The notes below the pieces were generated by a model. It did no database searches, was not told the DNA's origin, and worked only from the letters and a program-made list of their open reading frames with translations. The translations under genes and the position numbers were made by a program. From Candidatus Levyibacteriota bacterium (GTDB lineage Bacteria; Patescibacteriota; Microgenomatia; Levybacterales; UBA12049), in contig JACPLF010000006.1 in assembly GCA_016186645.1 (NCBI GenBank), forward strand, positions 46,312-110,311: DNA of 64,000 bases, given 5' to 3'. Shown here piece by piece: positions 1-17,402 of this stretch; position 1 is the first letter of the stretch; the number at the start of each line of letters is the position of its first letter.

Positions 1-428
1 ATTTAGATAATCCCTGGAATAAAGACGTAGTGATTATAAGGGAGAAAATTAAATCAAACAAAAAAATTATTTGCCTGGGTTTTGTTTCCAACGAGGAGCT
101 CGTAGCCTTATACAATGCTGCGACTGTTTTTGCTATGCCATCCCTGTACGAAGGATTTGGCTTGCCAATACTTGAGGCTATGAGCTGTGGCTGTCCTGTT
201 GTGACATCCAAAGAAGGTTCAATTCCTGAAATCACTGGCGAGGCCACCCTGAGCGTAGACGCTTATCACGTTGGGAGCATTGCAAAGGGAATTAAAGACG
301 TATTTGATGACAAAGACTTGCAAGCTACACTGTCTGAAGAAGGAATAGAACAGTCAAAGAAGTTCAGCTGGGAAAAGACAGCCATAGAGACAATGTCCGT
401 ATACAGAAAAGTCACCCGCAAGCCTTAG
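1..428 (+). CDS. Glycosyltransferase family 1 (GT4-like), C-terminal part; 5' end lies outside the window
   Basis: Frame is open from nt 3. The EGFGLPILEAMSCGCPVVTS motif is typical of the GT4 C-terminal Rossmann domain. Confidence 0.8.
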   Translation, partial: LDNPWNKDVVIIREKIKSNKKIICLGFVSNEELVALYNAATVFAMPSLYEGFGLPILEAMSCGCPVVTSKEGSIPEITGEATLSVDAYHVGSIAKGIKDVFDDKDLQATLSEEGIEQSKKFSWEKTAIETMSVYRKVTRKP

Positions 429-468
429 ATTCTTTGCAAATGCAGGCCTTTTTTAATAGAATAATAGT

Positions 469-1041
469 ATGGATTTTATTACGCTTAGCAATCTTAGTAG
501 CACAAAATTAATCAAGGACACTTTGGTTCATCCTCTCAAAATCAACAGAGACGCATCAGGAATTCTGGTTGAGACGTTGAGAAAAGATTGGAAGAATATT
601 TATGGTCCAGGCCGTGAATTTGCAATGCAATATTACTCTGTAACAGATAGCGGTGTAGCTCGGGATGAAGATGTTTGGCATTATCATCCGACAGTCCAAG
701 AAGACAGATTCTTGGTGGTTCAAGGTGAGATTATTGTGGCCGTAGCAGATAAAAGGGAGGGTTCAAGTACGAATGGATTATTAAATCTTTTTTATATGCA
801 GGCAGATAAAGATCCTTATATATTGTTAGTTCCTAAAAAGACATTGCATACTTTTATGGTAGTTTCCAAAAAACCGGCAATAATACTTAACTATGCAACC
901 AAGCTTTATAATCCGGCCGAAGAGGGAAGAATACCTTTCGAAGAAGCAGGAGTAAAACTTGCGGATGAGGAATTATTTACATGGGAAAAAGCCAGAAGGG
1001 AATTTCCTAAATTCTACTCTTCTATAAATGCGCAACATTAA
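469..1041 (+). CDS. RmlC-like cupin, dTDP-4-dehydrorhamnose 3,5-epimerase family
   Basis: 190 aa. RGFxETLRxD-like start, a WHYH cupin His motif and a C-terminal YNPxxEGxIPF block, with spacing that fits RmlC. Confidence 0.55.
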   Translation: MDFITLSNLSSTKLIKDTLVHPLKINRDASGILVETLRKDWKNIYGPGREFAMQYYSVTDSGVARDEDVWHYHPTVQEDRFLVVQGEIIVAVADKREGSSTNGLLNLFYMQADKDPYILLVPKKTLHTFMVVSKKPAIILNYATKLYNPAEEGRIPFEEAGVKLADEELFTWEKARREFPKFYSSINAQH

Positions 1042-1768
1042 TTTTCTATCTGTTGTTATTCCTGCTTACAAGCAAGAAAAAACAATCTTAAAAGACATAA
1101 GAGATCTTGATGAGTCACTTAAAAGCCTGCCTTATAAGTATGAAATTATCGTAGTTGTGGATGGTTTTATAGACACAACTTTTGGAAAAGCAAAGCAAAT
1201 AGATAAAGAGCATATAAAAGTTTTCGGTTATGAGAAAAACGAAGGCAAAGGTCATGCGGTGAAGTATGGCATGCTGAAGGCAAAAGGTGACGTAATAGGT
1301 TTTGTAGATGCCGGAATGGACTTAAGCCCAACTGGAATTTCTATCCTTTTGGATTCTATGATGTGGCAGGATGCAGATATCATAGTAGGCAGCAAACTCC
1401 ATCCGGATTCAAGAGTAGATTATCCTTATTTTCGTAGAATTCTTTCCTGGGGTTACAGAACATTAACCCATTTATTATTTGGATTCAGCGTTCGCGATAC
1501 GCAGGTCGGGATGAAATTTTTTAAAAGAGAACTAGTTGAAAAAGTTTTCCCAAAACTGTTGGTTAAGGCTTTTGCTTTTGACGTTGAGATTTTGGCAGTT
1601 GCAAATTCGATGGGTTATAAAAAGATAATTGAGGGACCAGTTGAGCTCAATTTCAAAGGAGGAAGCAGTATAACATCGGGAAATTTTTGGATTATTGTAC
1701 TTCTTATGCTTTGGGATACAATGGCAGTTTTTTACAGACTAAAAATTCTTAACTATTATAAAAAATGA
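1028..1768 (+). CDS. Glycosyltransferase family 2
   Basis: N-terminal VVIPAYKQE...EIIVVVDG and a DAG (DxD-like) motif, GT-A fold signature. Confidence 0.85.
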   Translation: MRNINFLSVVIPAYKQEKTILKDIRDLDESLKSLPYKYEIIVVVDGFIDTTFGKAKQIDKEHIKVFGYEKNEGKGHAVKYGMLKAKGDVIGFVDAGMDLSPTGISILLDSMMWQDADIIVGSKLHPDSRVDYPYFRRILSWGYRTLTHLLFGFSVRDTQVGMKFFKRELVEKVFPKLLVKAFAFDVEILAVANSMGYKKIIEGPVELNFKGGSSITSGNFWIIVLLMLWDTMAVFYRLKILNYYKK

Positions 1769-3045
1769 AAAAAATAATTAAGTCTGCGATGAATCATCCG
1801 TTAGTTACCGGAAGCACAATTATTTTTTTTGGCTCAATGACAGCCAATATACTCAATTATCTCTTTAATTTAGGAATGGGAAGATTTCTCCTAGAGTCAG
1901 AGTATGGGACATTTATATCTTTAATATCAGTATTCAATATTTTCTCAGTTTTATCTACGACCGTAAACACTGTTTTTACAAAATTTTCAGCAGTATTGGT
2001 CGGCCAGAAAAAAGAGGAATTTATAGGCCAGCTTTTTATATCTGGCAGTTGGTGGATTGGAATAATAGCATTTTGCATTACGGGATTTATAATTATATTT
2101 TCTTATCATATCTCGCGTTTTCTTAATATTAACTCAACAATTTTGATAGACATTACTGCTCTTGCTCTTTTTTTCTCCTATTTATCTTTTGTTGGCAATG
2201 GAATTCTTCAGGGTCTTCTTAAATTCGGATATTACTCATTTATAAATATATTTTCTTCTTTGTCAAAGCTTATTTTGGGTCTTGGCTTTATTTTTTTAGG
2301 GTTTAAAGTTTTCGGAGCAATTAGTGCATTTTTCCTGTCTGCTTTGATTGGATATCTGTTGGTCTTTTTCCCCTTACGAAAATTTTTAAAAAATAGCGGA
2401 AAAAAAGATTTTCATTTCTCTAATTTACGGAAAAAACTTTCCCTATATGCACTTCCGGTTTTTTTAGCCAATATTGGGATGACGGCATTCATAACAATAG
2501 ATATTATTTTGGTAAAGCATTTTTTTGAACCAACGACAGCAGGACAATATGCGGCAATATCCACCATGGGCAGATCTATATTTTACGCAGTATCTCCGAT
2601 CGCCTTAGTCCTTTTTCCTTTAGTGGCACAGAGAAAAGAAAGAGGAGAAAATTTAACCGGAATTACGCTTTTGTCTTTATTTTTAATAGGAGTTCCATCT
2701 TTGTTTTTAAGCTTGTTTTATTTTACGTTCCCGGAATTTGTACGTACAATCTTTTATCCTTCTTTTAGCCAAATAATAAATCAATATCTGGGGCCATTCT
2801 CTCTATTTGTCTTATTCTATACACTCTCGTATGTCTTAAATATCTTTTATCTTTCCATTGGCAAAATAAGAGTATACATAATTACAATTTTGGCAGCATG
2901 CGCTGAGACTGCTTTGATATGGTTTTTGCACGATAGTGTTAGTCAGGTAATAAATATTCTAATTTTAAGTTCCTTTTTGTTGTTTTTATCATTGCTATTT
3001 TACTATCCGATCGCAACCAAAAAAACAAGACCTAATTCTATATGA
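1765..3045 (+). CDS. Polysaccharide or oligosaccharide flippase-like polytopic membrane protein (Wzx/MOP superfamily-like)
   Basis: 426 aa, about 12-14 hydrophobic segments, ATGA overlap with the upstream GT2. Confidence 0.6.
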   Translation: MKKIIKSAMNHPLVTGSTIIFFGSMTANILNYLFNLGMGRFLLESEYGTFISLISVFNIFSVLSTTVNTVFTKFSAVLVGQKKEEFIGQLFISGSWWIGIIAFCITGFIIIFSYHISRFLNINSTILIDITALALFFSYLSFVGNGILQGLLKFGYYSFINIFSSLSKLILGLGFIFLGFKVFGAISAFFLSALIGYLLVFFPLRKFLKNSGKKDFHFSNLRKKLSLYALPVFLANIGMTAFITIDIILVKHFFEPTTAGQYAAISTMGRSIFYAVSPIALVLFPLVAQRKERGENLTGITLLSLFLIGVPSLFLSLFYFTFPEFVRTIFYPSFSQIINQYLGPFSLFVLFYTLSYVLNIFYLSIGKIRVYIITILAACAETALIWFLHDSVSQVINILILSSFLLFLSLLFYYPIATKKTRPNSI

Positions 3046-4142
3046 ATATCCTTATTTTTAACTGGAGAGATATAAAACATCCTTTGGCTGGAGGAGCCGA
3101 GATCTCTCTTTTTGAACACGCAAAATATTGGGAGAAGAAAGGGGCAAGCGTCACGTGGTTTGCATCCTCATTTCCTAAAGGGAAAGAAAGAGAAGATGTG
3201 GAAGGAATAAAAATTATAAGAAAGGGTTCTCATTATTCTGTTCACTTTCTTGCATTTTTAAATTATCTGCAAGGTCGTCTGGGCAATCCCAGTATTGTTA
3301 TTGACAGTTTCCATTTTTTACCTTTTTTCACACCTCTTTATATCAAAAAAGCAAAAATAGTAGGACTAATAAACGAAGTTGCAGGAAGAGTTTGGTTCTC
3401 AAATATTATTTTTCCTTTGTCTTTGATTGGTTATTTAATTGAGTCATTATTTTTTGCTTTTTACAAAAATACAAAATTTATTACGAGCTCTGATTCAACA
3501 AGAGATGAGCTTATAAAGTTCGGAATCCTCAAAGAATTTGTAAACATAGTTCATCACGGTGTAACTGTAAAAAAAATAAAAAAAGATATTGTTAAGGAAA
3601 AAAATCCAACGATAATTTTCTTAGGACGTATATCAGAGGACAAGGGTATAAAAGATGCTCTTATGGCTTTCAGTGAATTGAAAGGTAAAATTAAAAACTG
3701 TAAGTTGTGGATTGCGGGTAGAGAAGAAAATGAGGGATATCTGGAAGGATTGATAAAAGGTGTTGGGCTTAACAAATTTAGATCTGAAATTATATATTTT
3801 GATTATGTTTCGGAGGAGAAAAAGTTCGAACTCTTGAAGAAGGCTTGGGTGTTGATTCATCCATCAAGAAAAGAAGGATGGGGCCTTAACGTTATCGAAG
3901 CTGCATCCCAAGGGACGCCTACTGTAGGTTATAACACAGAGGGCCTGAGAGACTCCATTGTAGATGACAAGACTGGTCTTTTGTCCGATCCCAATCCTAA
4001 ATCTTTGGCAGATAAAGCCTTTAAGCTTATTTCAGATAAGAGACTTTACTATAAGTTAGAATTGGGAGCAGAAGAATGGGCCAATAAGTTTAATTGGGAA
4101 GAAAGTAATAGGCAGAGTTGGGAAGTTATAAAAAATATATGA
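3042..4142 (+). CDS. Glycosyltransferase family 1 (GT4)
   Basis: EGWGLNVIEAASQGTPTVG...GLRD motif of the GT4 C-terminal domain. Confidence 0.85.
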   Translation: MNILIFNWRDIKHPLAGGAEISLFEHAKYWEKKGASVTWFASSFPKGKEREDVEGIKIIRKGSHYSVHFLAFLNYLQGRLGNPSIVIDSFHFLPFFTPLYIKKAKIVGLINEVAGRVWFSNIIFPLSLIGYLIESLFFAFYKNTKFITSSDSTRDELIKFGILKEFVNIVHHGVTVKKIKKDIVKEKNPTIIFLGRISEDKGIKDALMAFSELKGKIKNCKLWIAGREENEGYLEGLIKGVGLNKFRSEIIYFDYVSEEKKFELLKKAWVLIHPSRKEGWGLNVIEAASQGTPTVGYNTEGLRDSIVDDKTGLLSDPNPKSLADKAFKLISDKRLYYKLELGAEEWANKFNWEESNRQSWEVIKNI

Positions 4143-6127
4143 AAAACATTAAAAACTTTTTTAAATCTTACTGGATCGGGATTTTAATTGCTTTAACATT
4201 CTTTTTTGTGGGATTGAGCACTCTTTCTCATTACGGAATAAATATTGATGAGCCTATTCATTTTGAAAGAGGGAATGCTTATCTGGACCTTTTCCTAACA
4301 GGAAGAACAAAATATACGAATGCTGATTTTCAAAGCCCCAGAGTAAGTGAATGGAAATATAAGGGTTATGATGCAGATTATTTTATAAAAAATGACAGCG
4401 GTCATCCTCCGCTTAGCGGCATTTTAGCAGCCGCAACCAACAGAATTCTTTATGAGAAGTTAGGAGTAATGGATGACTTGGAAGCTTATCATGCATTTGA
4501 ATTATTCATTTCAGCTCTTCTTGTTTTTCTTGTTTTTGCCATGATTAAAAGAAGATATGGCACATTCGCAGGGACTATAGCATGCTTATCGATGGCTCTT
4601 TATCCTTTGTTTTATGGAGAGTCTCACTATAATATTAAGGATCCAATTGAGGCTTCATTTTTTGCTTTTACTCTTTATTTTTTATATCTTGGCGTAGAGA
4701 ATCTTAAAGCAAAATATTTTTTTATTTCAAGTTTTTTTTGTGCCCTAGCTTTTGGAACGAAATTCAATATAATCTTTCTGCCTTTCATAATCATTCCGTA
4801 TCTTTTTGTACGCTTTGGTTTTTCTTTAAATTTTAAAAAGATACCTAAAGGTGTTTATGTAAGCTTATTTTTGTATACAATTATTGTTTTAGTTATTCAT
4901 TTTCTCTCCAGACCCTTTCTGTGGCAGGATCCAATAAACCGTTTCCTATATATAATTGCGTATTATAAAAACATCGGAACAGGGACAAATTTTGAACCAA
5001 TGTTTCTCAAATATGGATGGAACACCTATCCAACATTTTTCGTTGGAATATCTACCCCCCTTGTTATCCTTATTTTATTTATTATTGGCGTATTAGTTGT
5101 CTTATTCAGGATAAAGAAAGAAAAAGATAAGTTCTCTTTCCTTCTACTTTTGTGGTTTGGAGTTACCATTCTTAGGGTTTCACTTCCTGGTACTTCAATA
5201 TATGGTGGAGTAAGGCAGATTATGGAATATATTCCTGCTATGGCAGGAATTGCTGGGTTGGGAGCCTTATATATTCGCGGTCTATTATTCAAGTTTATAA
5301 ATATCAAATTAGCCTCCATAATAATTTTTGCAGCATTTGTTCCTTTGATGGCAACTCTTGTGAGGTTACACCCAAATGAAAATTTATTTATAAATAGTTT
5401 GGTAGGAGGATTGAAGGGGGCAACTGAAAAAAAAATAATGGGAAACGCTTATCTGCAAGGGATATTGTGGCTGAACGAACATGCGGAACAAGGAGCTCGT
5501 TTTGGATTTCCTGTGGGACTTGGATCTAACTTTCCGCCTCAATTCGTACGCAAAGATATTAAATTTGGCGGCCATTTTTCAGGAATGAAACGAGGCGGAG
5601 AATATATGATAGAAATGTTTTCTGTTGAGTTTCCGATCCACAAGTATTCTTATGATTATTTGGATCGCTTTCTTATTCCAGTACATGTAAAGGCTGTAGA
5701 TGGAGTACCAATACTGAAAATTTGGAAAAACGATATAGCCCACACGAGGACTGGATTTGTAAATGAGATAGAGGAAGGAAGAATTTTAGTTGAAAAATCA
5801 GGAGACGGATTATCTTTCTCTGTAAAGCTCAAGGAGCCAGCATTTGTTACTAGAATTGAGATTAATTATAGCAATGATGATTGTACTCGCGAATTTAATG
5901 GAGATTTTAGTTACTCTTATGACGGAGATAAGGAGTATCTTTCTCCCGATGAATCTCCTTTAAATCAGGGTAGATACGTAATTTCCTTACAGACAGTTAA
6001 TAAGCTTGTTTATTTTTTCCCTGCTGTAAAAGCCAAGTGGGTATACGTTACGCCCCATGATTCAAACTCATGTTTGTTGAATGTTAAAAACGTGAGAATT
6101 TTTTCTTTGAAAGATATTAAGCCTTAA
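4139..6127 (+). CDS. GT-C-type integral membrane glycosyltransferase-like protein (paralog family A) with extracytoplasmic C-terminal beta-rich domain
   Basis: ATG at 4139 overlaps the upstream stop (ATGA); the track ORF starts earlier at a TTG at 4118. About 430 aa polytopic region followed by about 230 aa soluble domain. Paralogous to 7411..9334 and 42113..44191. Confidence 0.75.
   Translation: MKNIKNFFKSYWIGILIALTFFFVGLSTLSHYGINIDEPIHFERGNAYLDLFLTGRTKYTNADFQSPRVSEWKYKGYDADYFIKNDSGHPPLSGILAAATNRILYEKLGVMDDLEAYHAFELFISALLVFLVFAMIKRRYGTFAGTIACLSMALYPLFYGESHYNIKDPIEASFFAFTLYFLYLGVENLKAKYFFISSFFCALAFGTKFNIIFLPFIIIPYLFVRFGFSLNFKKIPKGVYVSLFLYTIIVLVIHFLSRPFLWQDPINRFLYIIAYYKNIGTGTNFEPMFLKYGWNTYPTFFVGISTPLVILILFIIGVLVVLFRIKKEKDKFSFLLLLWFGVTILRVSLPGTSIYGGVRQIMEYIPAMAGIAGLGALYIRGLLFKFINIKLASIIIFAAFVPLMATLVRLHPNENLFINSLVGGLKGATEKKIMGNAYLQGILWLNEHAEQGARFGFPVGLGSNFPPQFVRKDIKFGGHFSGMKRGGEYMIEMFSVEFPIHKYSYDYLDRFLIPVHVKAVDGVPILKIWKNDIAHTRTGFVNEIEEGRILVEKSGDGLSFSVKLKEPAFVTRIEINYSNDDCTREFNGDFSYSYDGDKEYLSPDESPLNQGRYVISLQTVNKLVYFFPAVKAKWVYVTPHDSNSCLLNVKNVRIFSLKDIKP
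5296..5436 (+). repeat. 141-nt tract identical to 8598..8738 in the downstream paralog, ending in an A9 homopolymer
   Basis: By eye the tracts match base for base, whereas flanking paralog sequence is only about 65-75% identical. Confidence 0.85.
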
Positions 6128-7361
6128 TGTTTGTGGAAAGCATTTTTTCTATGTGTGACTTCATTTTGTCGAAGCCAAAACGGCTTTTATATGTTTTGTA
6201 GGCATTTTCGCCCAGCCTTTTGCGAAGCGCCGGATTTTTTATCAGTTTTTCTAGAGCTTTCGCCAATGAAGCTTCGTTGCCGCTTTCTACGATTAATCCT
6301 GAAAAATTATCCTTAATATCTTCGGGTATACCATCGCAATTACTTACCACAAGTGTTTTACCGTAACTCATTGATTCCAAAACTGTTAATGCACTACTTC
6401 CCTGGCGCAGAGGAACAACAACTGTTATATCTGCCTCGGTTAAAATAGGGTTGATATCAGCTACAAAGCCTAAGAAAATGACTTTCTTGGTAATATTTAA
6501 TTTTTCCGCTAATTTTTTATTTAATTCATAAAACGATCCAGATCCAACTATTAAGCAGGTGATATTAGGATATTTCTGAGATAGTATTTTTATGGCATGA
6601 ATAATAAAATTTATACCTTTTCTTGGATCTTGTCTGCAAATAGAAACAATAAGAGGGCGAGAATATTTGGTTGTTTCTATGCTCTTGTCTCCTTCTCTTT
6701 TGAAAGTTTCTGCGTACCAAGGAAACATATGAATTTTTTTGTCTTCAACATTAAAGCCTTCTCTGATTATTTTTTTCGAGGAGTTGTAGTGTATTACTAC
6801 CAGATCGCAAAAATCCAAGGTTATTTTCTCAAATAGATTAAATACCCTCGCGACTATTTCATAGACAACTAAATATTTAATTTTAGGTATCAGTCCATAA
6901 TCTTTGACTCTTATTGCATCCAAGGCTCCTTTCATTTCATGACGAGTACTTGTGAAATAACTCGACATCATGGTCATATGAACATTTTTTTGAGGAAATA
7001 TCTTCAGAAAAGCACCCGGAAATGCCCATGGCCCCATTCCCCAAAGGATAAATTTAGCGATTTTCTTTTCTTTGACTATTCTTTTTATTTCTTTAGCAAA
7101 AATAAAGCTATAATAAGGAAGTCCTGCTAATGCTAGATGATGAAGAAATGGAAAAAGTTTCAGTAATTTTGTGTTCAAAATATGAATATCTCCATATTCT
7201 GTCTTTTCAACTCCTTGTTTTTTACCTATTGCTAGGGTGTGAACGGGGTAACCAAGGGAAGTTAGTGTGATTGCCAGAATTCGAGCGTATGCAGGGTACC
7301 CTCCGGGATCTTCTAGGGGAGATTTTCCGCTAATAATGAATACAGGTAGCTTAACTTTCAT
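6117..7361 (-). CDS. Glycosyltransferase family 1 (GT4)
   Basis: LESMSYGKTLVVSNCDGIPEDIKDNFSGLIV motif; 414 aa. Confidence 0.85.
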   Translation of the reverse strand: MKVKLPVFIISGKSPLEDPGGYPAYARILAITLTSLGYPVHTLAIGKKQGVEKTEYGDIHILNTKLLKLFPFLHHLALAGLPYYSFIFAKEIKRIVKEKKIAKFILWGMGPWAFPGAFLKIFPQKNVHMTMMSSYFTSTRHEMKGALDAIRVKDYGLIPKIKYLVVYEIVARVFNLFEKITLDFCDLVVIHYNSSKKIIREGFNVEDKKIHMFPWYAETFKREGDKSIETTKYSRPLIVSICRQDPRKGINFIIHAIKILSQKYPNITCLIVGSGSFYELNKKLAEKLNITKKVIFLGFVADINPILTEADITVVVPLRQGSSALTVLESMSYGKTLVVSNCDGIPEDIKDNFSGLIVESGNEASLAKALEKLIKNPALRKRLGENAYKTYKSRFGFDKMKSHIEKMLSTNIKA

Positions 7362-7372
7362 AGCTGATTATT

Positions 7373-7381
7373 GTGTTATAA
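7373..7381 (+). promoter_or_regulatory. Extended -10 promoter-like element TGTTATAAT in a divergent intergenic region
   Basis: TGnTATAAT match, 30 nt upstream of the ATG at 7411. The same 13-mer ATTGTGTTATAAT recurs at 54209..54221. Confidence 0.3.
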
Positions 7382-7410
7382 TGCAAATCTAGGGATGTTC
7401 TAAATTATAC

Positions 7411-9334
7411 ATGATTAAATCTTCTAAATCTACTAAATGGCTTGACAAAATTGGCTCTTTTTTGAAATTTTATTGGGTTGGAGTTTTAATTTCTTTGATA
7501 TTTTTTGTTGTAGGAATTATAACCCTTTCTCATTATGGAAATAACATAGATGAGCCAATGCATTTTGAAAAGGGAAATGCGTATCTCGACTTCTTCTTAA
7601 CCGGCAGAGAAAAATATACGGATGCCGATTTCACAAGTAAGCGTATCAGTGAATGGAAATATAGAGGATTTGATACGGCATTTTTCTTGAAGACCGATTG
7701 TTGCCATCCTTCTCTGAATGATATTCTGGCCGCTGGGACTAATAGAGTTCTTTATGGACAGTTTGGAATAATGGGTGATCTAGAATCGTATCATGTATTC
7801 GAATTATTTATCTCAACGCTTCTTATATTTCTAGTATTTGCAATGATTAGAAGGAGATACGGTATTTTTGCTGGAACGATAGCGTCTTTATCAATAGCCC
7901 TCTATCCTTTATTCTATGGAGAAGCTCGTTTTAATATTAAAGATCCTATTGAAGCTTCATTTTTCGCTTTTACTCTTTATTTCTTTTATTTAGGTGTTGA
8001 AAAAGCGAGAGCAAAATATTTTTTAATATCAAGTATATTTTGCGCCCTTGCTTTCGGAACTAAATTCAACATTATCTTTTTGCCATTCATAATTATTCCA
8101 TATCTCTTAGTACGTTTTGGTTTTAGTTTTAATTTTAAAAAAATACCCAAAAGAATTTATTTAAGTCTATTTATTTATCCGATTATAGTTTTGGGAGTCA
8201 ATTTTATCTTCAGACCTTATTTGTGGCAAGACCCCATTAATCGTTTCTTGAGTGTTGCCCAATATTATAAAGACATTGGGACAGGGACAGATTATCAGTC
8301 TGCATTTCTTAAATTTGGTTGGAATACGTATCCAACTTTTTTCGTTGGAATTTCTACGCCTCTTATTATTCTCGGATTATTTCTTGTCGGGGTGGTAATT
8401 GCTTTATTTAGAGTAAAACGTGAAAAAGATAAATTTTCCTTTCTTATACTTTTGTGGTTTGCAATTACTATTCTCAGAGTATCAATTCCAGGGACTTCAA
8501 TATATGGGGGAGTAAGACAGATTATGGAGTACGTTCCTGCCATGGCGGCAATTTCAGGATTAGGAGCTTTATACCTTAGAAGTCTCTTGTCCAGATATAT
8601 AAATATCAAATTAGCCTCCATAATAATTTTTGCAGCATTTGTTCCTTTGATGGCAACTCTTGTGAGGTTACACCCAAATGAAAATTTATTTATAAATAGT
8701 TTGGTAGGAGGATTGAAGGGGGCAACTGAAAAAAAAATCTAATTTTCCTCCTCAATTTTTACGTAAAGACATTAAATTTGGTGCAGTAATTTCCGGCATG
8801 AAGCGTAACGGAGAGTATATGATGGAAATGTTTTCTGTGGAATATCCCTCTTCCCGCTATAATATAGATTACCTGGAAAATCTCCTAGATCCTGTATATG
8901 TTTATTATGTTGATGGTGTGCCAATCCTGAAAGTTTGGAAGAACGACATCGTTCACACAAAACCAGCTTTCGCTCTCGAAGTGGAGCTTCATGATCTTAC
9001 TATAAGCGGAGGAGCTAAAGAGGGATTCATACTGCTTGAGCTTAAAAATCCAGCTAGCATATCTAGAATTGAAATAGATCATGATCGCAATTCTTGTAAA
9101 GACGAGAGCACTGGAAGAGTTATGTACTTATCCTTAGACGAAGAAGAAATTCTGCTGCCCGATGATCTCTTTAGATCTCAAAGTTTGTATCCATTATCTC
9201 TTCAAACCCCAACACATTTTGTCTATTTTTTAACAGGACAAAAAACAAAGCAAATTACAATAATTCCTGAAAATAAAAATCTTTGTTTGTTGCAATTCAG
9301 AGCAGTAAAAATATTTGGACTGGCAAGTAAGTGA
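7411..9334 (+). pseudogene. Family A GT-C paralog, currently split into 7411..8742 and 8798..9334 by an 89-nt deletion at an A9 tract; one A fewer would restore a single ORF
   Basis: Both fragments align to the 4139..6127 protein. The stop falls immediately after the A9 tract, and the downstream fragment frame reads through upstream (KKSNFPPQFLRKDIKFG...) if the tract were A8. Confidence 0.7.
8729..8737 (+). repeat. Poly(A)9 homopolymer at the frameshift point of the split paralog
   Basis: Read directly: gaaaaaaaaat. Confidence 0.9.
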
Positions 9335-9342
9335 TTTGATGT

Positions 9343-10560
9343 ATGAAAAAAATAAAAATTTTGGTGGTAACGAGCTCTTTCCCGCGCAGTAAAGCCGATT
9401 GGTGGGGACAATTCATTTTAAAAATTTATGAGCATTTACCTAAAGATAGATTTGCAATAACTATTTTAGCTCCACATTCTCCAGGCGCTAAGTTAAAAGA
9501 AAATTTTGAAGATATTAACATTTTCAGATTTCCATATTTTTACCCCTTTTCCCAAGAAATCTTAACAACAGGAAGCGGTATCTTACATAGTAAAGGCAAT
9601 ATTCTTGCAAAAATACAGGTTTCCACTTTTTTATTATCAGAATTTGTTTACGTAATTTTTATTCTCTTAACAAAGAAATTTGATATAGTTCATTCGCATT
9701 GGATTCTGCCTCAGGGTTTTTTTGGAGTTATAGCAAAATATATATTTAAAATACCTTTAATTGTTACTATACATGGAAGCGATATCTTTGCATTAAAAAA
9801 ACTTAACCTTATTAAATCTTTTGTATTAAGAAAATCAACCATCGTTACCGCAAATAGTACTGCAACACAAAGAGAAGCTTACGCAGTTAGTTCTAATTCA
9901 AATCCACTTTTAATACCAGAAGGTGTAGATTTAAACGTATTCAATTCCAAGAAAAGGGACTTACAATGGAGAAAAAAAATGAATAATAATGACCAAATTA
10001 TTATTGCAGTGGGAAGGCTGATAAAGTGGAAGGGTTTTGACTATCTTATAAAGGCAATGCCTAAAATACTTAAAAAGTTTCCTAAAGTAAAACTTGTTAT
10101 TGTAGGTTCAGGTCCTGAAGAAATGAATTTAAAAAAAATTGTAGAATTTTTGGGATTAGATAAAAATGTTGTATTTTTAAAAAATGTATCTCATGACAAA
10201 CTTTCAGTGATGTATGCATCGAGCGATATTTTCGTGTCTCCATCAATAACGAATGAAGCTAGTGGAGAAAAAGAAGCATTGGGGATTGTTATTATAGAAG
10301 CGATTGCCTCAGGAATTCCGGTTGTTGCGAGCAATAGCGGTGGCATTAGAGATACTGTAGATGGCAAATCAACGGGATTTCTTGCAAAAGAAAAAGATCC
10401 TGATGATATAGCTCAAAAGACAACGGATTTACTATCTAATTTGAAAATTAGAAGAGAAATCATCAAAAAAGGCTTAAGACATGTTGAGAAAAGATATTCA
10501 TGGGATATTCTGGCAAAGAAATATAGTGACTTATATGAAAAATGCATGAAGTTGACATAA
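9343..10560 (+). CDS. Glycosyltransferase family 1 (GT4)
   Basis: EALGIVIIEAIASGIPVVASNSGGIRDTV motif. Confidence 0.85.
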   Translation: MKKIKILVVTSSFPRSKADWWGQFILKIYEHLPKDRFAITILAPHSPGAKLKENFEDINIFRFPYFYPFSQEILTTGSGILHSKGNILAKIQVSTFLLSEFVYVIFILLTKKFDIVHSHWILPQGFFGVIAKYIFKIPLIVTIHGSDIFALKKLNLIKSFVLRKSTIVTANSTATQREAYAVSSNSNPLLIPEGVDLNVFNSKKRDLQWRKKMNNNDQIIIAVGRLIKWKGFDYLIKAMPKILKKFPKVKLVIVGSGPEEMNLKKIVEFLGLDKNVVFLKNVSHDKLSVMYASSDIFVSPSITNEASGEKEALGIVIIEAIASGIPVVASNSGGIRDTVDGKSTGFLAKEKDPDDIAQKTTDLLSNLKIRREIIKKGLRHVEKRYSWDILAKKYSDLYEKCMKLT

Positions 10561-10605
10561 AGAAGCAGAATAACTACGATATATGCTGTTATTCAAAAAG
10601 CATAC

Positions 10606-11391
10606 ATGAGAGACAATAAGAAAACACGTGAGCGTATAACAGGAGAAGATAGCGGAAATTCAATTATTTTTAACCGCCATTTGGCAGCTTACAAATACGC
10701 TGCTTCTTATGTGGATAGGAAAAAAAGCGTATTGGATTTAGGCTGCAGTGATGGCTATGGAAGCTTTTTAATTGCAAAGATATCAAAGGAGACTGTTGCG
10801 CTAGATATTGATAAAAAGACAATCGAAGATGCAAGAAAAAAATACAGTATGGCAAACCTTAAGTTTGTTCTCGGGAACGCACTATCTTTAAAATGGAAAA
10901 ATAAATTTGATATTGTAGTGTCTTTTCAGGTTATTGAACATATCGAAGATGTAAATTTGTATCTTCACCAGATTAAAAAAGTTTTGAAAAAAGGAGGAAT
11001 TTTTATTCTTTCTACCCCAAACAGATTGCTCCGATTGAGAAACGGGGAAAAACCCTGGAATAAATTTCATATTCATGAATTCGAAAAGGAGGAATTAACG
11101 TCTTTTCTTAAAAAACATTTCTCAAAAATTGAAGCAATGGGATTGCATTCTTCAGAAGATATTTATGAAGCCGAGAGGAAAAGACTATACATAAGAAGGT
11201 TAATTGCGAAATTTGATTTATTTGATTTTTACTCGCATCTACCTCGTGAATTCACAGATAGGATTGTTGGGTTAATTAAAAAATTGACCTTAAGAAAAAA
11301 AGATAAAAAAACTACAAATCAAAATGATTTTTGGTTCAGCAAGGACAAGGTAGATATTTCCCTAGATTTACTGAGCGTATGCACAAAATAA
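10606..11391 (+). CDS. Class I SAM-dependent methyltransferase
   Basis: VLDLGCSDGYG motif I and a later LKKGGIFILSTPN block. Confidence 0.8.
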   Translation: MRDNKKTRERITGEDSGNSIIFNRHLAAYKYAASYVDRKKSVLDLGCSDGYGSFLIAKISKETVALDIDKKTIEDARKKYSMANLKFVLGNALSLKWKNKFDIVVSFQVIEHIEDVNLYLHQIKKVLKKGGIFILSTPNRLLRLRNGEKPWNKFHIHEFEKEELTSFLKKHFSKIEAMGLHSSEDIYEAERKRLYIRRLIAKFDLFDFYSHLPREFTDRIVGLIKKLTLRKKDKKTTNQNDFWFSKDKVDISLDLLSVCTK

Positions 11392-11415
11392 ATACATATC
11401 AAGGTTTTTAGCTTT

Positions 11416-12597
11416 ATGGTCAAATTAATTAAGTCTACTTTTTATAATGAATATAATACGAAAGAAAAATTGTGTGAATTTATTAAAAATGCTAAGCAGC
11501 TTAGTTTTGGGACAGAGTGCGAGAAGTTTGAACAAAATTTTGCTAAGTGGCAGAAAAGAAAGCATTGTATATTTTTGAATAGCGGAAGTTCCGCCAACTT
11601 AGCTATAGTTCAAGCGCTTCTGAATGAAGGTAGCATCAAAAAAGGGGATAATGTCGGGTTTTCAGCTCTCACCTGGTCCACAAATGTGATGCCAATAATT
11701 CAATTGGGATTGAATGCGATACCCATAGATGTCGAGTTAAACACTTTAAATGTTTCCAGCAGAATGCTTAGAGAAGTTATTGAAAAACATTCTTTGAAGA
11801 TGCTATTTATTACTAATCTTCTTGGATTTTGCGACGACATAGATGAAATAAGAAAAATTTGCGATGAAAAGAAAATAATTTTTATAGAGGATAACTGTGA
11901 ATCGTTAGGTACAGTTTACAAAGGAAAATTATTGGGCAATTATGGGATAGCTTCTACATTTTCCTTTTATGTCGGGCACCACATGTCTACGATTGAGGGC
12001 GGAGCAGTTTGTACTGATGATGATAAGCTTGCAACCATGCTTCGCTTGGTTAGGGCGCATGGGTGGGATCGTAATTTAAGCCAAGAACAGCAATTAAAAA
12101 TTAGAAACAAGTTTAAAGTTAACTCCACATTTTACTCAAGGTATACGTTCTACAATTTGGGTTATAATCTACGGCCAACAGAAATAAATGGACTTATCGG
12201 TAATTTACAAATTAAGTACCTTACAGAAATTATAGAGATAAGAAGCAAAAATTTTTTTGATTTATCGTTGCCTATTTATAAGCAGGAAAATAAGTATTTT
12301 ACGATTAAATATAAACATATCGATTTCCTTTCTAGCTTCGCTATTCCTGTAATATGCAAGAGTCAAAAAATAAGAGACGAATTGGTTGAAAAATGCAAAG
12401 ATAAGATTGAGATCAGGCCAATTGTAGGTGGAGATATGACAAGACAGCCTTTCTTCATGAAGTACATGAAGAAATATGCAGATTCATTTAATGACTCAAA
12501 TGCTAAGTTAGTGCATGATCAGGGGTTATATTTCGGCAACAATCCTGAGCTAACATCTGAAGAAAAGAAAATAATTTTAGACGTATTTACTAAGTAG
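11416..12597 (+). CDS. DegT/DnrJ/EryC1-family enzyme with His replacing the PLP lysine: putative PMP-dependent nucleotide-sugar 3-dehydratase (ColD/E1-like)
   Basis: SFYVGHHMSTIEGG in place of the canonical SF..K..GEGG; 393 aa; no C-terminal Cys cluster. Confidence 0.65.
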   Translation: MVKLIKSTFYNEYNTKEKLCEFIKNAKQLSFGTECEKFEQNFAKWQKRKHCIFLNSGSSANLAIVQALLNEGSIKKGDNVGFSALTWSTNVMPIIQLGLNAIPIDVELNTLNVSSRMLREVIEKHSLKMLFITNLLGFCDDIDEIRKICDEKKIIFIEDNCESLGTVYKGKLLGNYGIASTFSFYVGHHMSTIEGGAVCTDDDKLATMLRLVRAHGWDRNLSQEQQLKIRNKFKVNSTFYSRYTFYNLGYNLRPTEINGLIGNLQIKYLTEIIEIRSKNFFDLSLPIYKQENKYFTIKYKHIDFLSSFAIPVICKSQKIRDELVEKCKDKIEIRPIVGGDMTRQPFFMKYMKKYADSFNDSNAKLVHDQGLYFGNNPELTSEEKKIILDVFTK

Positions 12598-13507
12598 GTC
12601 GGTCTTTTTTCTTTTGCGCAAGGTAATATGTGACCATTTCCGCAATTAGCCCTGTTGATAAAAGCTGCACTCCTAAAAGCATGAAGAATACTCCAGCAAT
12701 CAAAAGGGGAATCTTACCTTGAGTTGTGCCTGTTGTTAATTTGACATAAGTTACGTAAGCATCCATTAAAAAACCGGCAGAAAAAAGTGAAAGTCCTATT
12801 ACGCCGAAAAAATGTGCAGGTTTTGCAGCAAAGTCGCTTATAAAGATCGCAGTCAGAAGATCTAAAATGCCTCTCCAGCTTCTCCCAAAACCAAATTTGG
12901 ATTTCCCATATTTTCTTAACCTATTATTGACTTGAATTTCCGTAACCTTATATTTCTTTTTTGCTGCCAATATAGGGATGAATCTGTGTAGCTCGCCATA
13001 AATACTTAACTCGTCCGCAACTTCTTTTCTCAATATTTTTAGTCCACAATTAAAATCATGTAATTCTACTCCGGATAGAAATGCGGAGCCCTTATTAAAC
13101 AATATGCTTGAAATTTTCTTGGATAATGTATCTGCTCTTTTTTTCCTCCATCCATTAACCAGATCGTATCCTTCTTCTAATTTGGCGATTAGTTTTGGGA
13201 TATCCATAGGATCGTCTTGCAAGTCTGCATCCATCGCGATAATTACCTCTCCCGTTGCTTCTCCAAACCCGGTGGATAGAGCCAATGATTTGCCAAAGTT
13301 TGCTCTAAAAGTAATAAGCTTAATATTGTTGTTGGTTTTTTGAAGCTCAGCAATTATCTTACTTGAATTATCTTCGGATCCATCGTCAATAAAAATAATC
13401 TCATAAGGCTTGTTAAGTTTTTTTAAAGCTTTTGCTAGCTCATTGTGGAGTGTAGGAAGAGACTGAGCTTCGTCTTTTAAAGGGATTACTATGGAATAGG
13501 CAATCAT
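12590..13507 (-). CDS. Polyprenyl-phosphate glycosyltransferase (GT2, GtrB/ArnC/DPM1-like) with C-terminal transmembrane hairpin
   Basis: IVIPLKDE...IIFIDDGSED...DADLQDDP plus two C-terminal hydrophobic helices. Confidence 0.8.
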   Translation of the reverse strand: MIAYSIVIPLKDEAQSLPTLHNELAKALKKLNKPYEIIFIDDGSEDNSSKIIAELQKTNNNIKLITFRANFGKSLALSTGFGEATGEVIIAMDADLQDDPMDIPKLIAKLEEGYDLVNGWRKKRADTLSKKISSILFNKGSAFLSGVELHDFNCGLKILRKEVADELSIYGELHRFIPILAAKKKYKVTEIQVNNRLRKYGKSKFGFGRSWRGILDLLTAIFISDFAAKPAHFFGVIGLSLFSAGFLMDAYVTYVKLTTGTTQGKIPLLIAGVFFMLLGVQLLSTGLIAEMVTYYLAQKKKDRPT

Positions 13508-14133
13508 TGTTTGTTGTAGTATTTTTTATTTTGGAGTTTTTCTATGGTTTGCAAATTTGTCTTTGAAAAATTGACTACAATAATAAACGTTTTTTGGTTC
13601 TGAGCTGGAACTCTTTCTATTAGCGTACCAAGAACCTCCTGATGTTTTCTGGAAGCAGTTTTTAACTTATTAAACAAGTCATCGTTTGGTTTTTCTGACA
13701 TTTTTTTAAGCTCGTATGTTACAAGAGTCATATTGTGTTCTGCTTTTAATGCTGTTTGCTCTGCCAGCGCAACTTTGTTTTTATCTATCAGCATAGCTGT
13801 AGCCAATATGCCCTTATCTGCCTGCAATAGGTAAAATTCAATCCTCTTATACTGATCGCTTATGAGCACTATGCTTATTTTGTCTCTTAGGACTTTCAAT
13901 TTATACAGGGGATTATCAGGCAAAATACCGGGGAAAGCCAGATCGTAGTCTATTTTAGCGATCTCCATTTTAGGGTCAGCTGATTCAGTTTCCATTGAGT
14001 TTTGCTCCTTAGCTTCAGCCGAGATTGCAAAAAACAGAGAAAAAACGACAAAAACCAATATGAATAAATTCAATTTACGCACATTTTGAGTATAGTCTAA
14101 TACGATGAAAGTGTCAACATCTCTATTTGACAA
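13504..14133 (-). CDS. Secreted or membrane-anchored hypothetical protein (DUF5667-like)
   Basis: N-terminal hydrophobic helix, then PGILPDNPLYKLK and coiled-coil-like Ala/Lys/Glu-rich sequence. Confidence 0.4.
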   Translation of the reverse strand: MSNRDVDTFIVLDYTQNVRKLNLFILVFVVFSLFFAISAEAKEQNSMETESADPKMEIAKIDYDLAFPGILPDNPLYKLKVLRDKISIVLISDQYKRIEFYLLQADKGILATAMLIDKNKVALAEQTALKAEHNMTLVTYELKKMSEKPNDDLFNKLKTASRKHQEVLGTLIERVPAQNQKTFIIVVNFSKTNLQTIEKLQNKKYYNKQ

Positions 14134-15109
14134 GGTCTTTTAAATAGTTTTGAGTAAAATATTCAACGCCTTTTACATTTAAGTGTTCACGGTCCCAATA
14201 AAACTCCTGTTTTTGCATTTCTAGTGCGAAATCAAAATACTCTGTTTTGTATTTCTTTTTAAGCTCGGACAGTAACTTTATCACATTATCATGTCCGGGC
14301 ATTTCTCCCATAAGAGTGGGTGGTATTATGAAGGAAATTGCTGCATCATTCTTTTTTGCTAACAATATAATTTGTTCGACATGCTTTGAATACTTTGAGA
14401 AATTTTTATCACTTAACCCCTCATTATATGATATTTCCAGTCTTTGTTTATCTTCAGCTTGGTTAGCTAGCTGTTGTTCTTCCGGAGTCTTCTGAGCCAT
14501 TCGCGCTTCTCTTTTTCCAGCCTCAACCTTAGCAGAGTCCTCACTAGGAATTTCTTTATTGTCAGGTTGTAGATTTTCTACGGGTTTAATTTTCTCAGGG
14601 GATATAGTTTTAGGCATTAGCAGTTCCCTCATAAATTTATCAGAATTGTCTGTCAACTTATCTCTAAAGTAATTAAATACCACTTTTGTACTCACTTTGT
14701 TTTCGATTAGCTTAGAGAGGTATGAGTATTCGATTCCTTCCTGTTGAAGAATATAATTATCCTCATTCCAGCGAGACGAATAAAGCGCCCACGGATCTAA
14801 AAAATAAATAACTTGATTAGTTTTATTGTTTGCCTCAAAAAAACAAGTGAGAAATATTTTTTCCGGAACAACACCAGCAGCTCCTGTTGCCAAATTTTTC
14901 ATTTTTTTCTGTATAATTTTTTCTACTATGTGATCGTAAAATACTTGTGTATGTGATGTTCCCATTAGTAAGAAATCATATTCTCCGTTTCTAGGAGCTG
15001 TACAAGCAGATTCAAGGAAAGACTTGTTGTATAAAAGGTACATAATCACATTGTAGATAACGATATTAACTACCATTAGAATTAAAACTTTTAAAATAAA
15101 TCTTTTCAT
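14123..15109 (-). CDS. DltD/SGNH-like membrane-anchored acyltransferase partner protein (putative)
   Basis: N-terminal TM, GTSH (GDS-like) block, C-terminal DREHLNVKG (DxxH) block; sits directly downstream of the MBOAT gene. Confidence 0.45.
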   Translation of the reverse strand: MKRFILKVLILMVVNIVIYNVIMYLLYNKSFLESACTAPRNGEYDFLLMGTSHTQVFYDHIVEKIIQKKMKNLATGAAGVVPEKIFLTCFFEANNKTNQVIYFLDPWALYSSRWNEDNYILQQEGIEYSYLSKLIENKVSTKVVFNYFRDKLTDNSDKFMRELLMPKTISPEKIKPVENLQPDNKEIPSEDSAKVEAGKREARMAQKTPEEQQLANQAEDKQRLEISYNEGLSDKNFSKYSKHVEQIILLAKKNDAAISFIIPPTLMGEMPGHDNVIKLLSELKKKYKTEYFDFALEMQKQEFYWDREHLNVKGVEYFTQNYLKDLVK

Positions 15110-15114
15110 TTCGC

Positions 15115-16614: not shown

Positions 16615-16625
16615 AATTTGGAGAA

Positions 16626-17348
16626 TTAATTAGACATTTTTATTCTGATAATTCCTAGCAGTGCAGACACAAATTCTTTTACTCCCGCACTAGACTTACC
16701 ATAAGTTCTATCTGTGAAATTAATGGGTACTTCGGCAATTTTAAAGCCATTCTTTTTTAATCTAAAGGCAATTTCGGAGAGAGCAATAAAACCTTTTTCT
16801 CTTAGTTTTATTTTTGTTAAAAATTCCACAGATTTTCTGTTGTAGAGTCTGAAGCCGTTGGTATAATCACTGATTTTAAGACCCAGCCAGATATTTATAA
16901 AACTGTTGATTATTTTGCTCAATATTAGCCTTTTTAGAGGCCATTTAATTATTTTGCTTTCTTCTAAGTATCGTGACCCAATAACTAGATCTGCTTCTTT
17001 AGATTTTATGGTACCCAAAAATTTACTAAAATCTTCGGGATCATGAGCCATATCCGCATCCATTTCAAAAAAATATTTTATTTGCTTATTTTTAAACATT
17101 TCTCTGAAACCTGTTATTATCGCACTGCCTCTGCCCATTTTTTTAAATCTTGAAATTAGAATAACTTTATTTTTTAATTGCGAATCGGATTTAAGTAGTC
17201 TTTTTAGTTTTAGATTATTTTCGATTTTAGAATCATCAACGACTATTATTTTTGCATCCGGCAAAAAAGATAATATTTTTTTTGTAAGTAAGGAAATATT
17301 CTTTGTTTCGTTAAACGAGGGGATGATAACGCCAACAGATAATTTCAT
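16626..17348 (-). CDS. Glycosyltransferase family 2
   Basis: GVIIPSFNE...IIVVDDS GT-A motifs. Confidence 0.8.
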   Translation of the reverse strand: MKLSVGVIIPSFNETKNISLLTKKILSFLPDAKIIVVDDSKIENNLKLKRLLKSDSQLKNKVILISRFKKMGRGSAIITGFREMFKNKQIKYFFEMDADMAHDPEDFSKFLGTIKSKEADLVIGSRYLEESKIIKWPLKRLILSKIINSFINIWLGLKISDYTNGFRLYNRKSVEFLTKIKLREKGFIALSEIAFRLKKNGFKIAEVPINFTDRTYGKSSAGVKEFVSALLGIIRIKMSN

Positions 17349-17402
17349 TATAATACGCTTGATTATACCACCTTTTTTGCGAAATGAGCTATAATATCTG
17401 AA

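What the first reader, a model, noticed from the sequence alone, without database searches (positions are those of the whole stretch)
5296..8738. Perfectly identical 141-nt tract shared by two diverged tandem GT-C paralogs, a gene-conversion or recombination footprint
Genes 4139..6127 and 7411..9334 are only roughly 65-75% identical at the DNA level. Yet 5296..5436 and 8598..8738 appear to be base-for-base identical, with a sharp boundary on the 5' side. On the 3' side the identity ends at an A9 tract that coincides with an 89-nt deletion in the second copy. Identical tracts inside diverged paralogs indicate recent intrachromosomal gene conversion. A conversion tract ending at an indel suggests the deletion arose in the same event. 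This is a mechanism for generating glycosyltransferase variants.
Basis: seen in the sequence. Interest (0 to 1): 0.7.

Follow-up and report, generated by a model that had tools for sequence, protein, structure and literature searches.

The report
Real conversion tract, artefactual adjacent deletion
Two diverged neighbouring glycosyltransferase genes of a groundwater Levybacteria genome really do share a short identical stretch, an ordinary gene-conversion footprint, but the adjacent "deletion" and broken second gene are assembly errors caused by that repeat.

Summary
Window 5296-5436 and 8598-8738 are identical over 141 nt, while the two GT39/PMT_2 genes are about 76% identical elsewhere and their next longest exact run is 17 nt.

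The 3' end of the tract is an assembly artefact. This covers the A9 boundary, the 89-nt deletion and the frameshift that splits gene 2. Independent Logan assemblies (k=31) of at least four SRA runs of the same population match the window with 0 mismatches over more than 16 kb. They carry the sequence the window lacks:
- 18 nt in gene 1, encoding the conserved PGVGET motif.
- 107 nt in gene 2.

Both genes are therefore intact, at about 668 and 676 aa.

The contig ends show a true shared repeat of about 177 nt: 5296-5436, the 18 missing nt, then 5437-5454. It ends at a synonymous difference.

The figure of 141 equals the largest default k of MEGAHIT. The probable source study used MEGAHIT followed by IDBA-UD scaffolding. 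Contigs would stop 141 nt into the repeat, and the next contigs were joined after over-trimming.

What remains is a recent short gene-conversion tract between two old, functional paralogs. Synonymous sites are saturated outside it and show no differences inside it. This is a known kind of event and of low interest. The public annotations MBI2613547 and MBI2613548 are fragments of one gene.

The parts
4139..6127 (+). Gene 1, a GT39/PMT_2 (GT-C) glycosyltransferase. It is 662 aa as assembled (NCBI MBI2613545) and about 668 aa in reality.
   Evidence: Pfam PMT_2, E=8e-13. It equals P0001. The closest homologues aligned carry 6 residues, PG[AV]GET, that the window copy lacks. Logan contigs L008 and L009 restore VGET.
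5296..5436 (+). Copy 1 of the identical tract, the first 141 nt of a true repeat of about 177 nt. It encodes a hydrophobic stretch, probably the last membrane helix (not computed), and the conserved HPNENLFINSLVGGLKGATEKKI segment.
   Evidence: Exact identity. Logan contigs L014 and L015 match window positions up to 5325 with 0 mismatches and stop 30 nt into the tract, as expected for k=31 at a true repeat.
5436..5437 (.). Misjoin in gene 1. 18 nt are missing (xCCxGG + AGTTGGAGAGAC, completing the Ile codon and encoding PGVGE plus the first two bases of the Thr codon).
   Evidence: L008 and L009 are identical to the window from 5437 to 7549 or 7491, but read AGTTGGAGAGAC just before 5437.
5437..5454 (+). 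The last 18 nt of the true identical tract in gene 1 (AATGGGAAACGCTTATCT). The first real g1/g2 difference is at 5455, G versus T, a synonymous Leu change.
   Evidence: L008 (reverse complement) and L010 share a 30-nt prefix and then diverge.
5427..5435 (+). A9 run (codons E-K-K-I) near the end of the 141-mer. It is not a biological boundary.
   Evidence: Relatives have interrupted A runs at the same codons.
6117..7361 (-). GT4 glycosyltransferase, convergent with gene 1 and overlapping it by 11 nt. It sits between the two paralogs.
   Evidence: Pfam Glycos_transf_1. The exact protein is present in Logan assemblies. The same PMT_2 plus GT4(-) module occurs in relative L004.
7411..9334 (+). Gene 2, a second GT39/PMT_2 glycosyltransferase. 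In this assembly it is split into 7411-8742 (MBI2613547, 443 aa) and 8798-9334 (MBI2613548, 178 aa). In reality it is one intact gene of about 676 aa.
   Evidence: Reconstruction with L010 gives one open frame of 676 codons.
8598..8738 (+). Copy 2 of the identical tract (first 141 nt).
8738..8739 (.). Misjoin in gene 2. 107 nt are missing: 36 nt that complete the shared tract and 71 nt of gene-2-specific sequence encoding QGILWLNEHAEKDAKFGIPVGLG.
   Evidence: L010, L011 and L013 (three runs) are identical to the window from 8738 rightwards (to 18068 for L010, 0 mismatches). They carry 100 nt upstream of 8738 that differ from the window.

Best explanation
Two things are superimposed.

1. Real biology. 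Two old paralogous GT39/PMT_2 genes lie in a cell-surface glycosylation cluster of a Candidatus Levybacteria genome. They share a stretch of about 177 nt of perfect identity, produced by a recent, short, non-reciprocal recombination (gene conversion) between the copies 3.3 kb apart. Both genes are intact and under purifying selection.

2. Artefact. The repeat is longer than the assembler's largest k, inferred to be MEGAHIT's default maximum of 141. Contigs therefore ended exactly 141 nt into the repeat. The scaffolder then abutted the next contigs after trimming too much, losing 18 nt in gene 1 and 107 nt in gene 2. This produced three false features: the sharp 3' boundary at the A9 tract, the 89-nt deletion, and the frameshift that splits gene 2.

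Shown: the identity, the missing sequence, intact frames in independent assemblies, and repeat-type contig breaks.
Inferred: the conversion mechanism and its direction (undetermined), the identity of the assembler, and the trimming step.
For: Identity and background divergence:
- 141/141 identity against a 75.7% background, with the next longest run at 17 nt.
- Outside the tract, synonymous sites are saturated (pS 0.68 and 0.77). dN/dS is about 0.09 in the N-terminal part.
- In the 57 scorable codons of the 59-codon tract window, the only difference is the synonymous boundary Leu codon.

The paralogs are old:
- They are 73% identical (aa) in the N part and 46% in the C part, no closer to each other than to homologues from other genomes. 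They are 100% identical in the tract, a phylogenetic incongruence.

Independent Logan assemblies of runs SRR12113383, -384, -420 and -430 match the window with 0 mismatches over 1-5325, 5437-7549 and 8738-18068. They differ exactly at the two junctions:
- The g1-side contigs read ...VGET|MGN.
- The g2-side contigs carry gene 2's own version of the 'deleted' segment, 74% identical to gene 1, in frame.

Contig ends behave as expected for a true repeat:
- The left contigs stop 30 nt into the tract, and both right contigs start with the same 30-mer.
- A k=31 de Bruijn simulation of a 177-nt repeat reproduces exactly these ends. With k=141 it gives 140, or 141 if the branching node is included.

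Other support:
- The closest homologues aligned have the 6 residues that the window's gene 1 lacks. 45 of the proteins of 600 aa or more, nearly all among the closer homologues, carry the PGxxET-MGN-type motif.
- He et al. 2021 state MEGAHIT v1.2.9 with default parameters, then the IDBA-UD scaffolding function. That study is BioProject PRJNA640378, the probable origin of the MAG and of the runs.
- 'k-max 141' co-occurs with MEGAHIT in 61 papers.
Against: - No reads could be inspected.
- Six nt of the repeat (R142-147) were not seen in any sequence held.
- The link from the MAG (MBI26135xx, locus tag HYW62) to PRJNA640378 and MEGAHIT is an inference. It rests on accession style, on run numbers (SRR12113421 is attributed to that project by elimination) and on 100% sequence identity. 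The record itself was not read.
- The behaviour of IDBA-UD's scaffolder with negative gap estimates is recalled from memory.
- A minor subpopulation carrying real deletions cannot be formally excluded.
- RecA-type conversion between sequences whose flanks now share at most 17 nt of exact identity is unusual.
Confidence: 0.78

Rival explanations
1. A real gene conversion whose 3' end coincides with a real 89-nt deletion made in the same event, which inactivates or remodels gene 2, with the A9 tract as the breakpoint.
For: The window sequence reads this way. There is an AT microhomology at the junction. Apart from this one lesion both halves of gene 2 are open, as expected for a very recent event.
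Against: - Contigs from three runs of the same zero-SNP population carry the undeleted, in-frame gene 2.
- Gene 1 shows a second 'deletion' starting at the same nucleotide, and it too is absent from independent contigs.
- The shared piece is exactly 141 nt, the assembler's largest k.
- The Logan contigs run through 5437 and 8739 without the branch that a frequent deletion allele would create.
Confidence: 0.05
2. The identical tract is itself an assembly chimera. Gene 2 has its own diverged sequence there, and gene 1's sequence was pasted in.
For: The same contig demonstrably has two misjoins at this repeat. No independent contig covering 7550-8597 plus the junction could be fetched.
Against: - L014 and L015 end exactly at 5325, 30 nt into the tract. 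With k=31 this requires another 31-mer in the sample that shares tract bases 1-30 but differs at the base before them, which is what gene 2 shows (T versus A).
- The right-hand contigs of both genes share their first 30 nt.
- A MEGAHIT contig ending in the 141-mer needs read-derived k-mers that chain from gene 2's unique flank into the tract.
Confidence: 0.07
3. The identity is kept by selection on the nucleotide sequence, for example an RNA or regulatory element embedded in the coding sequence, rather than by recombination.
For: The tract encodes the most conserved protein segment of the family.
Against: - Orthologous tracts in L001-L003 differ from it and from each other at many synonymous sites.
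- About 39 synonymous sites carry no differences apart from the boundary codon, where pS is 0.68-0.77 elsewhere.
- Paralog pairs in L004 and L005 share no run longer than 23 nt.
Confidence: 0.02
4. Homopolymer phase variation or transcriptional slippage. The A9 run at the frame break lets gene 2 switch on (A9 to A8) and gene 1 switch off.
For: In the window, the C-terminal frame of gene 2 is open from 8717 and overlaps the A9. Loss of one A would fuse the frames. A9 is among the longest homopolymers in the window.
Against: The frame break is an artefact of the 107-nt loss. In the reconstructed gene the A9 lies in frame in both copies. The run simply follows from the GAA-AAA-AAA-AT codons for the conserved EKKI.
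Confidence: 0.02

Closest known systems
Short-tract gene conversion between dispersed or tandem paralogs in bacteria. From general knowledge: the tufA/tufB genes, rRNA operons, and surface-protein gene families.
   Same: A perfectly identical segment lies inside otherwise diverged paralogs. The boundaries are sharp, the event is recent, and the tract tree disagrees with the flank trees.
   Different: The background divergence is high, at 24%, with saturated synonymous sites. Exact flank matches are at most 17 nt, well below the usual minimal homology for RecA-mediated exchange. Only one tract is seen, so there is no evidence of ongoing concerted evolution or of a variation system. The direction is unknown.
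Repeat-induced misassembly in de Bruijn-graph metagenome assemblies (contigs ending k nt into a repeat, followed by scaffold joins with wrong gap or overlap estimates).
   Same: The shared piece equals the largest default k (141). Both losses start at the same nucleotide at the end of that k-mer. Independent assemblies restore the sequence. A simulation reproduces the contig ends.
   Different: The joins left no N run (the window contains no N), so the error looks like a clean deletion and frameshift. NCBI annotated the result as two separate proteins.
GT39/PMT_2 (ArnT/PMT-like) GT-C glycosyltransferases encoded in Microgenomates surface-glycan clusters.
   Same: There is a Pfam PMT_2 hit and a conserved DE motif near the N-terminus. 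The neighbours are GT4, GT2, a Wzx-like flippase, DegT and MBOAT genes, and the order is syntenic with relatives.
   Different: No solved structure is detectable by sequence. The substrate is unknown. This genome has two copies at the locus, where relatives L001-L003 have one there.

Membership tests
Gene conversion tract between paralogs | A run of identity far longer than the background divergence allows | tested here: met
   141 nt in the window, about 177 nt reconstructed. The next longest run is 17 nt. The shuffle maximum is 56. The expected number of such runs is about 3e-15.
Gene conversion tract between paralogs | Normal divergence resumes on both sides | tested here: met
   Left: 75.7% identity upstream. 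Right, using the independent contigs: 74/100 identical after the shared 30-mer.
Gene conversion tract between paralogs | Synonymous sites are homogenised inside the tract only | tested here: met
   pS is 0.68 and 0.77 outside. Inside, across about 39 synonymous sites, the only change is the boundary codon.
Gene conversion tract between paralogs | Phylogenetic incongruence between the tract and its flanks | tested here: met
   g1 and g2 are no closer to each other than to other genomes' homologues in the N part (73%) and the C part (46%), but are identical in the tract.
Gene conversion tract between paralogs | Non-reciprocal transfer with an identifiable donor and recipient | tested here: inconclusive
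   No close ortholog of either gene exists in the databases; the best is 68-70% aa. The tract's affinities do not discriminate between the two genes.
Gene conversion tract between paralogs | The tract is present in the organism and not only in one assembly | tested here: met
   Logan k=31 contig ends at both edges of the repeat, from several runs. The interior positions 31-141 are supported only by the MAG contig.
Conversion-associated deletion / pseudogenisation of gene 2 | The deletion junction is present in sequence data of the population | tested here: not met
   L010, L011 and L013 carry the undeleted, in-frame sequence. L008 and L009 do the same for gene 1.
Assembly artefact at a repeat longer than k | The length of the duplicated end equals the assembler's k | tested here: met
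   The length is 141 nt. The probable source study used MEGAHIT defaults. k-max 141 is taken from the software documentation (memory). The link between the MAG and that study is inferred.
Assembly artefact at a repeat longer than k | An independent assembly of the same population disagrees exactly at the junctions and nowhere else | tested here: met
   0 mismatches over 1-5325, 5437-7549 and 8738-18068. Differences occur only left of 5437 and left of 8738.
Assembly artefact at a repeat longer than k | Read-level support is absent for the junctions as assembled | not testable with these tools
   No access to reads.
GT-C fold, GT39/PMT_2 | Match to the family profile above the curated threshold | tested here: met
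   PF13231: 49.4 and 50.8 bits against a cut-off of 26.1.
GT-C fold, GT39/PMT_2 | Acidic DE motif near the N-terminus (the first extracytoplasmic loop in characterised family members) | tested here: met
   NIDEP at residue 35 (g1) and residue 45 (g2). A DE motif is present in 139 of 150 homologues. The functional role of the motif is from general knowledge of PMT enzymes.
GT-C fold, GT39/PMT_2 | Multi-spanning membrane fold and lipid-linked sugar donor | not tested
   No structure prediction was run. No solved relative is detectable by sequence.

The most novel reading that the evidence does not exclude
The tract is a true homeologous conversion. About 177 nt were exchanged between sequences that are 24% diverged and whose flanks share no exact match longer than 17 nt. 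This would suggest that this CPR bacterium recombines with unusually relaxed homology requirements, for example through weak mismatch-repair policing or a template-switching route. Such recombination could repeatedly homogenise the conserved helix-loop segment of paralogous surface glycosyltransferases.
Probability: 0.15. Interest if true: 0.4.

Novelty: new member of a known kind. Interest (0 to 1): 0.12.

Why it matters
Biologically it matters little. It is one more example of short-tract gene conversion between paralogs, here in a CPR surface-glycosylation locus, and both enzymes remain intact.

The practical consequences are larger:
- A public MAG contig carries two clean-looking misjoins at a 177-nt repeat. 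They create a false in-frame deletion of a conserved motif in one gene (MBI2613545).
- They also create a false frameshift that splits another gene into two deposited proteins (MBI2613547 and MBI2613548).
- A repeat of exactly the assembler's k, followed by an indel, is a useful warning sign when scanning MEGAHIT-plus-scaffolder assemblies for pseudogenes, phase variation or recombination-coupled deletions.

Tried and rejected
- Exact look-ups of gene 1 and of the gene 2 N-terminal ORF in the contig index found nothing. The flanking genes had to be used instead.
- An exact 34-nt pattern from the tract found nothing in genome contigs or metagenome contigs. The population is not in those collections.
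- The third protein search, with a 70-aa query spanning the reconstructed tract, was meant to fetch the Logan unitig of the repeat. It returned no scored candidates and was wasted.
The A2|tract junction therefore has no independent contig.
- I tried to infer the direction of conversion from the tract's similarity to homologues. It was not informative, and no close ortholog of gene 2 exists.
- I looked for recurrent conversion in two related loci with two paralogs, L004 and L005. None was found, with longest runs of 20 and 23 nt.
- I considered phase variation or transcriptional slippage at the A9 run and a split-gene reading of gene 2. Both were rejected once the frame break proved artefactual.
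- I considered Campbell-type integration or unequal crossover at the repeat. They were rejected because they do not predict the observed structure, and because the two-gene arrangement is old.
- Run numbers and the locus tag were not found in the held supplementary tables of He et al..
Full report
**Observation**

Window 5296-5436 and 8598-8738 are identical base for base over 141 nt, and the bases immediately outside differ on both sides. The tract lies at the same relative position in two genes of the same family. Gene 1 is 4139-6127. Gene 2 is 7411-9334, which in the window is broken into ORFs 7411-8742 and 8798-9334. A global alignment gives 78% identity over aligned columns and 75.7% upstream of the tract. 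The second longest exact run is 17 nt. Shuffling the match vector gave a longest run averaging 25.6, with a maximum of 56 in 2000 trials. The expected number of 141-nt runs is about 3e-15. In the window the tract ends in A9T. Gene 2 then lacks 89 nt relative to gene 1, which shifts the frame and places a stop right after ...EKKI. The description is accurate for the sequence as given.

**What the genes are**

Both genes hit Pfam PMT_2 (GT39, GT-C) above threshold. They sit in a glycan-synthesis cluster with a dTDP-sugar isomerase, a GT2, a Wzx-like flippase, several GT4 genes, DegT and MBOAT. The same order is seen in relatives. The proteins are NCBI MBI2613545 (gene 1), MBI2613547 (gene 2 N-part) and MBI2613548 (gene 2 C-part, annotated 'hypothetical'). 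They come from a Candidatus Levybacteria MAG contig of 214,814 bp.

The paralogs are old. They are 73% identical at the protein level before the tract and only 46% after it, no closer to each other than to homologues from other genomes. Synonymous sites are saturated (pS 0.68 and 0.77), with dN/dS near 0.09 in the N-terminal part. Related loci carry one copy (L001-L003) or two (L004, L005). One of these has the same PMT_2 plus convergent GT4 module.

**First warning sign**

In an alignment with the closest homologues, every one has EKKI-PG[AV]GET-MGNAYLQG. Gene 1 of the window lacks the six residues PGVGET, exactly after the A9T. Gene 2 lacks 36 residues starting at the same nucleotide. Two 'deletions' beginning at the same base, at the end of a repeat whose length equals MEGAHIT's largest default k (141), suggested an assembly problem.

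**Decisive evidence**

The flanking GT4 genes are present, as exact proteins, in Logan assemblies (k=31) of SRA runs SRR12113383, -384, -420 and -430. These contigs are the same strain. They match the window with 0 mismatches over three stretches:
- 1-5325 (L014; L015 covers 1705-5325)
- 5437-7549 (L008; L009 runs to 7491)
- 8738-18068 (L010; L011, L013 and L012 are likewise identical)

The contigs disagree with the window only at the two junctions:
- Left of 5437, L008 and L009 read AGTTGGAGAGAC (..V G E T), not TGAAAAAAAAAT.
- Left of 8738, L010, L011 and L013 carry 100 nt that the window lacks: AGTTGGAGAGACAATGGGAAACGCTTATCT, followed by 70 nt specific to gene 2. These 70 nt encode QGILWLNEHAEKDAKFGIPVGLG and are 74% identical to gene 1's counterpart.

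With these pieces gene 2 is one open frame of 676 codons and gene 1 has 668, the normal size for the family. The 89-nt deletion, the frameshift, the A9 boundary and gene 1's missing motif are therefore not properties of the population sampled in these runs.

**Is the tract itself real?**

Yes, as far as this can be tested without reads.
- L014 and L015 stop at 5325, exactly 30 nt into the tract.
- The contigs that run rightward out of gene 1 and out of gene 2 begin with the same 30-mer and diverge at the 31st base (G versus T, a synonymous Leu change).
- A de Bruijn simulation of a locus with a 177-nt repeat reproduces exactly these contig ends for k=31. For k=141 it gives contigs ending 140 nt into the repeat, or 141 if the branching node is included. 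From memory, MEGAHIT builds unitigs as paths of (k+1)-mer edges, which gives 141.

The true shared segment is thus 5296-5436, plus the 18 lost nt, plus 5437-5454, about 177 nt in total. Six of these bases (xCCxGG) were not seen in any sequence I hold. Positions 31-141 are attested as common to both genes only by the MAG contig. Across the 57 scorable codons of the 59-codon tract window, the only difference is the boundary codon.

**How the artefact probably arose (inferred)**

The MAG's accession style and the run numbers point to BioProject PRJNA640378. SRR12113421 is attributed to that project, by elimination, in a paper that reused it. The methods of He et al. 2021 state MEGAHIT v1.2.9 with default parameters, followed by the scaffolding function of IDBA-UD. 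MEGAHIT's default k list ends at 141, according to the software documentation from memory; 'k-max 141' co-occurs with MEGAHIT in 61 papers.

A 177-nt repeat cannot be traversed at k=141. The contigs coming from the left would end with the first 141-mer of the repeat. The 177-nt repeat unitig falls below MEGAHIT's 200-nt minimum contig length (default recalled from memory). The right-hand contigs would start with the last 141 nt of the repeat. The true overlap between neighbouring contigs is 105 nt. The window corresponds to trimming 123 nt and 212 nt from the right-hand contigs, which loses 18 and 107 nt. From memory, IDBA-UD's path assembly trims by the estimated negative distance without checking the overlap. 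I could not verify this here.

**What is left biologically**

A recent, short gene-conversion-type exchange occurred between two intact, selected paralogs 3.3 kb apart. It covers a hydrophobic stretch, probably the last membrane helix (not computed), and the best conserved segment of the enzyme.

The donor cannot be named. No close ortholog of either gene exists; the best hits are 68-70% identical. The tract's affinities do not discriminate between the two genes. Paralog pairs in two relatives show no such tract, so there is no sign of a recurrent mechanism. The one mildly unusual aspect is the high background divergence, with no exact flank match longer than 17 nt. This is low for RecA-dependent exchange, and it is the basis of the 'novel case'.

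**Rivals**

- A fully chimeric tract is contradicted by the k=31 contig ends.
- Nucleotide-level selection is contradicted by synonymous divergence in relatives.
- Phase variation at the A9 run loses its basis once the frame break is removed.

**Verdict**

The tract is an ordinary kind of event, and the feature that made it interesting is an assembly artefact. Interest is low. The useful output is a correction to the public annotation and a diagnostic signature: a repeat of length k followed by an indel.

Noticed in passing
window 7411-8742 and 8798-9334: The deposited proteins MBI2613547 ('glycosyltransferase family 39 protein', 443 aa) and MBI2613548 ('hypothetical protein', 178 aa) are two fragments of one gene of about 676 aa, split by the misjoin. 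MBI2613545 lacks six conserved residues for the same reason.
   Followed up: yes
window 7491 and 7549 (ends of L009 and L008): Logan contigs from different runs end inside the 5' part of gene 2, at 7491 and 7549. The window holds no repeat there. One of these contigs is identical in 4 samples. This suggests a population polymorphism or another shared k-mer elsewhere in the genome. The cause was not determined.
   Followed up: no
window 6117-6127; L004 2589-2599: Gene 1 and the convergent GT4 gene overlap by 11 nt at their 3' ends. The same PMT_2 plus GT4(-) 414-aa module, with the same overlap, occurs in relative L004, so the pair behaves as a unit.
   Followed up: partly
L001 10040-11970, L002 10030-12024, L003 7194-7961, window 9343-11391: The order and orientation of the methyltransferase and GT4 genes next to the PMT_2 gene differ among related Levybacteria loci. 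They are inverted in L001 and upstream in L003. The cluster is rearrangement-prone.
   Followed up: no
window 4139-6127 vs 7411-9334, C-terminal about 220 codons: The C-terminal domains of the paralogs, presumed extracytoplasmic, are far more diverged (46% aa) than the membrane domains (73%). Each is closer to a different set of homologues: g1 to P0005 and P0008, g2 to P0012 and P0007. This suggests domain-level mosaicism or different acceptor specificities.
   Followed up: partly
L002 18008-18028, L003 17437-18046, L010 8766-9431 (about window 17403-18068): In relatives, a further and longer PMT/PMT_2 gene (759-782 aa) lies about 8 kb downstream of the cluster. The window probably has a counterpart near 17.4 kb. 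It was not examined.
   Followed up: no
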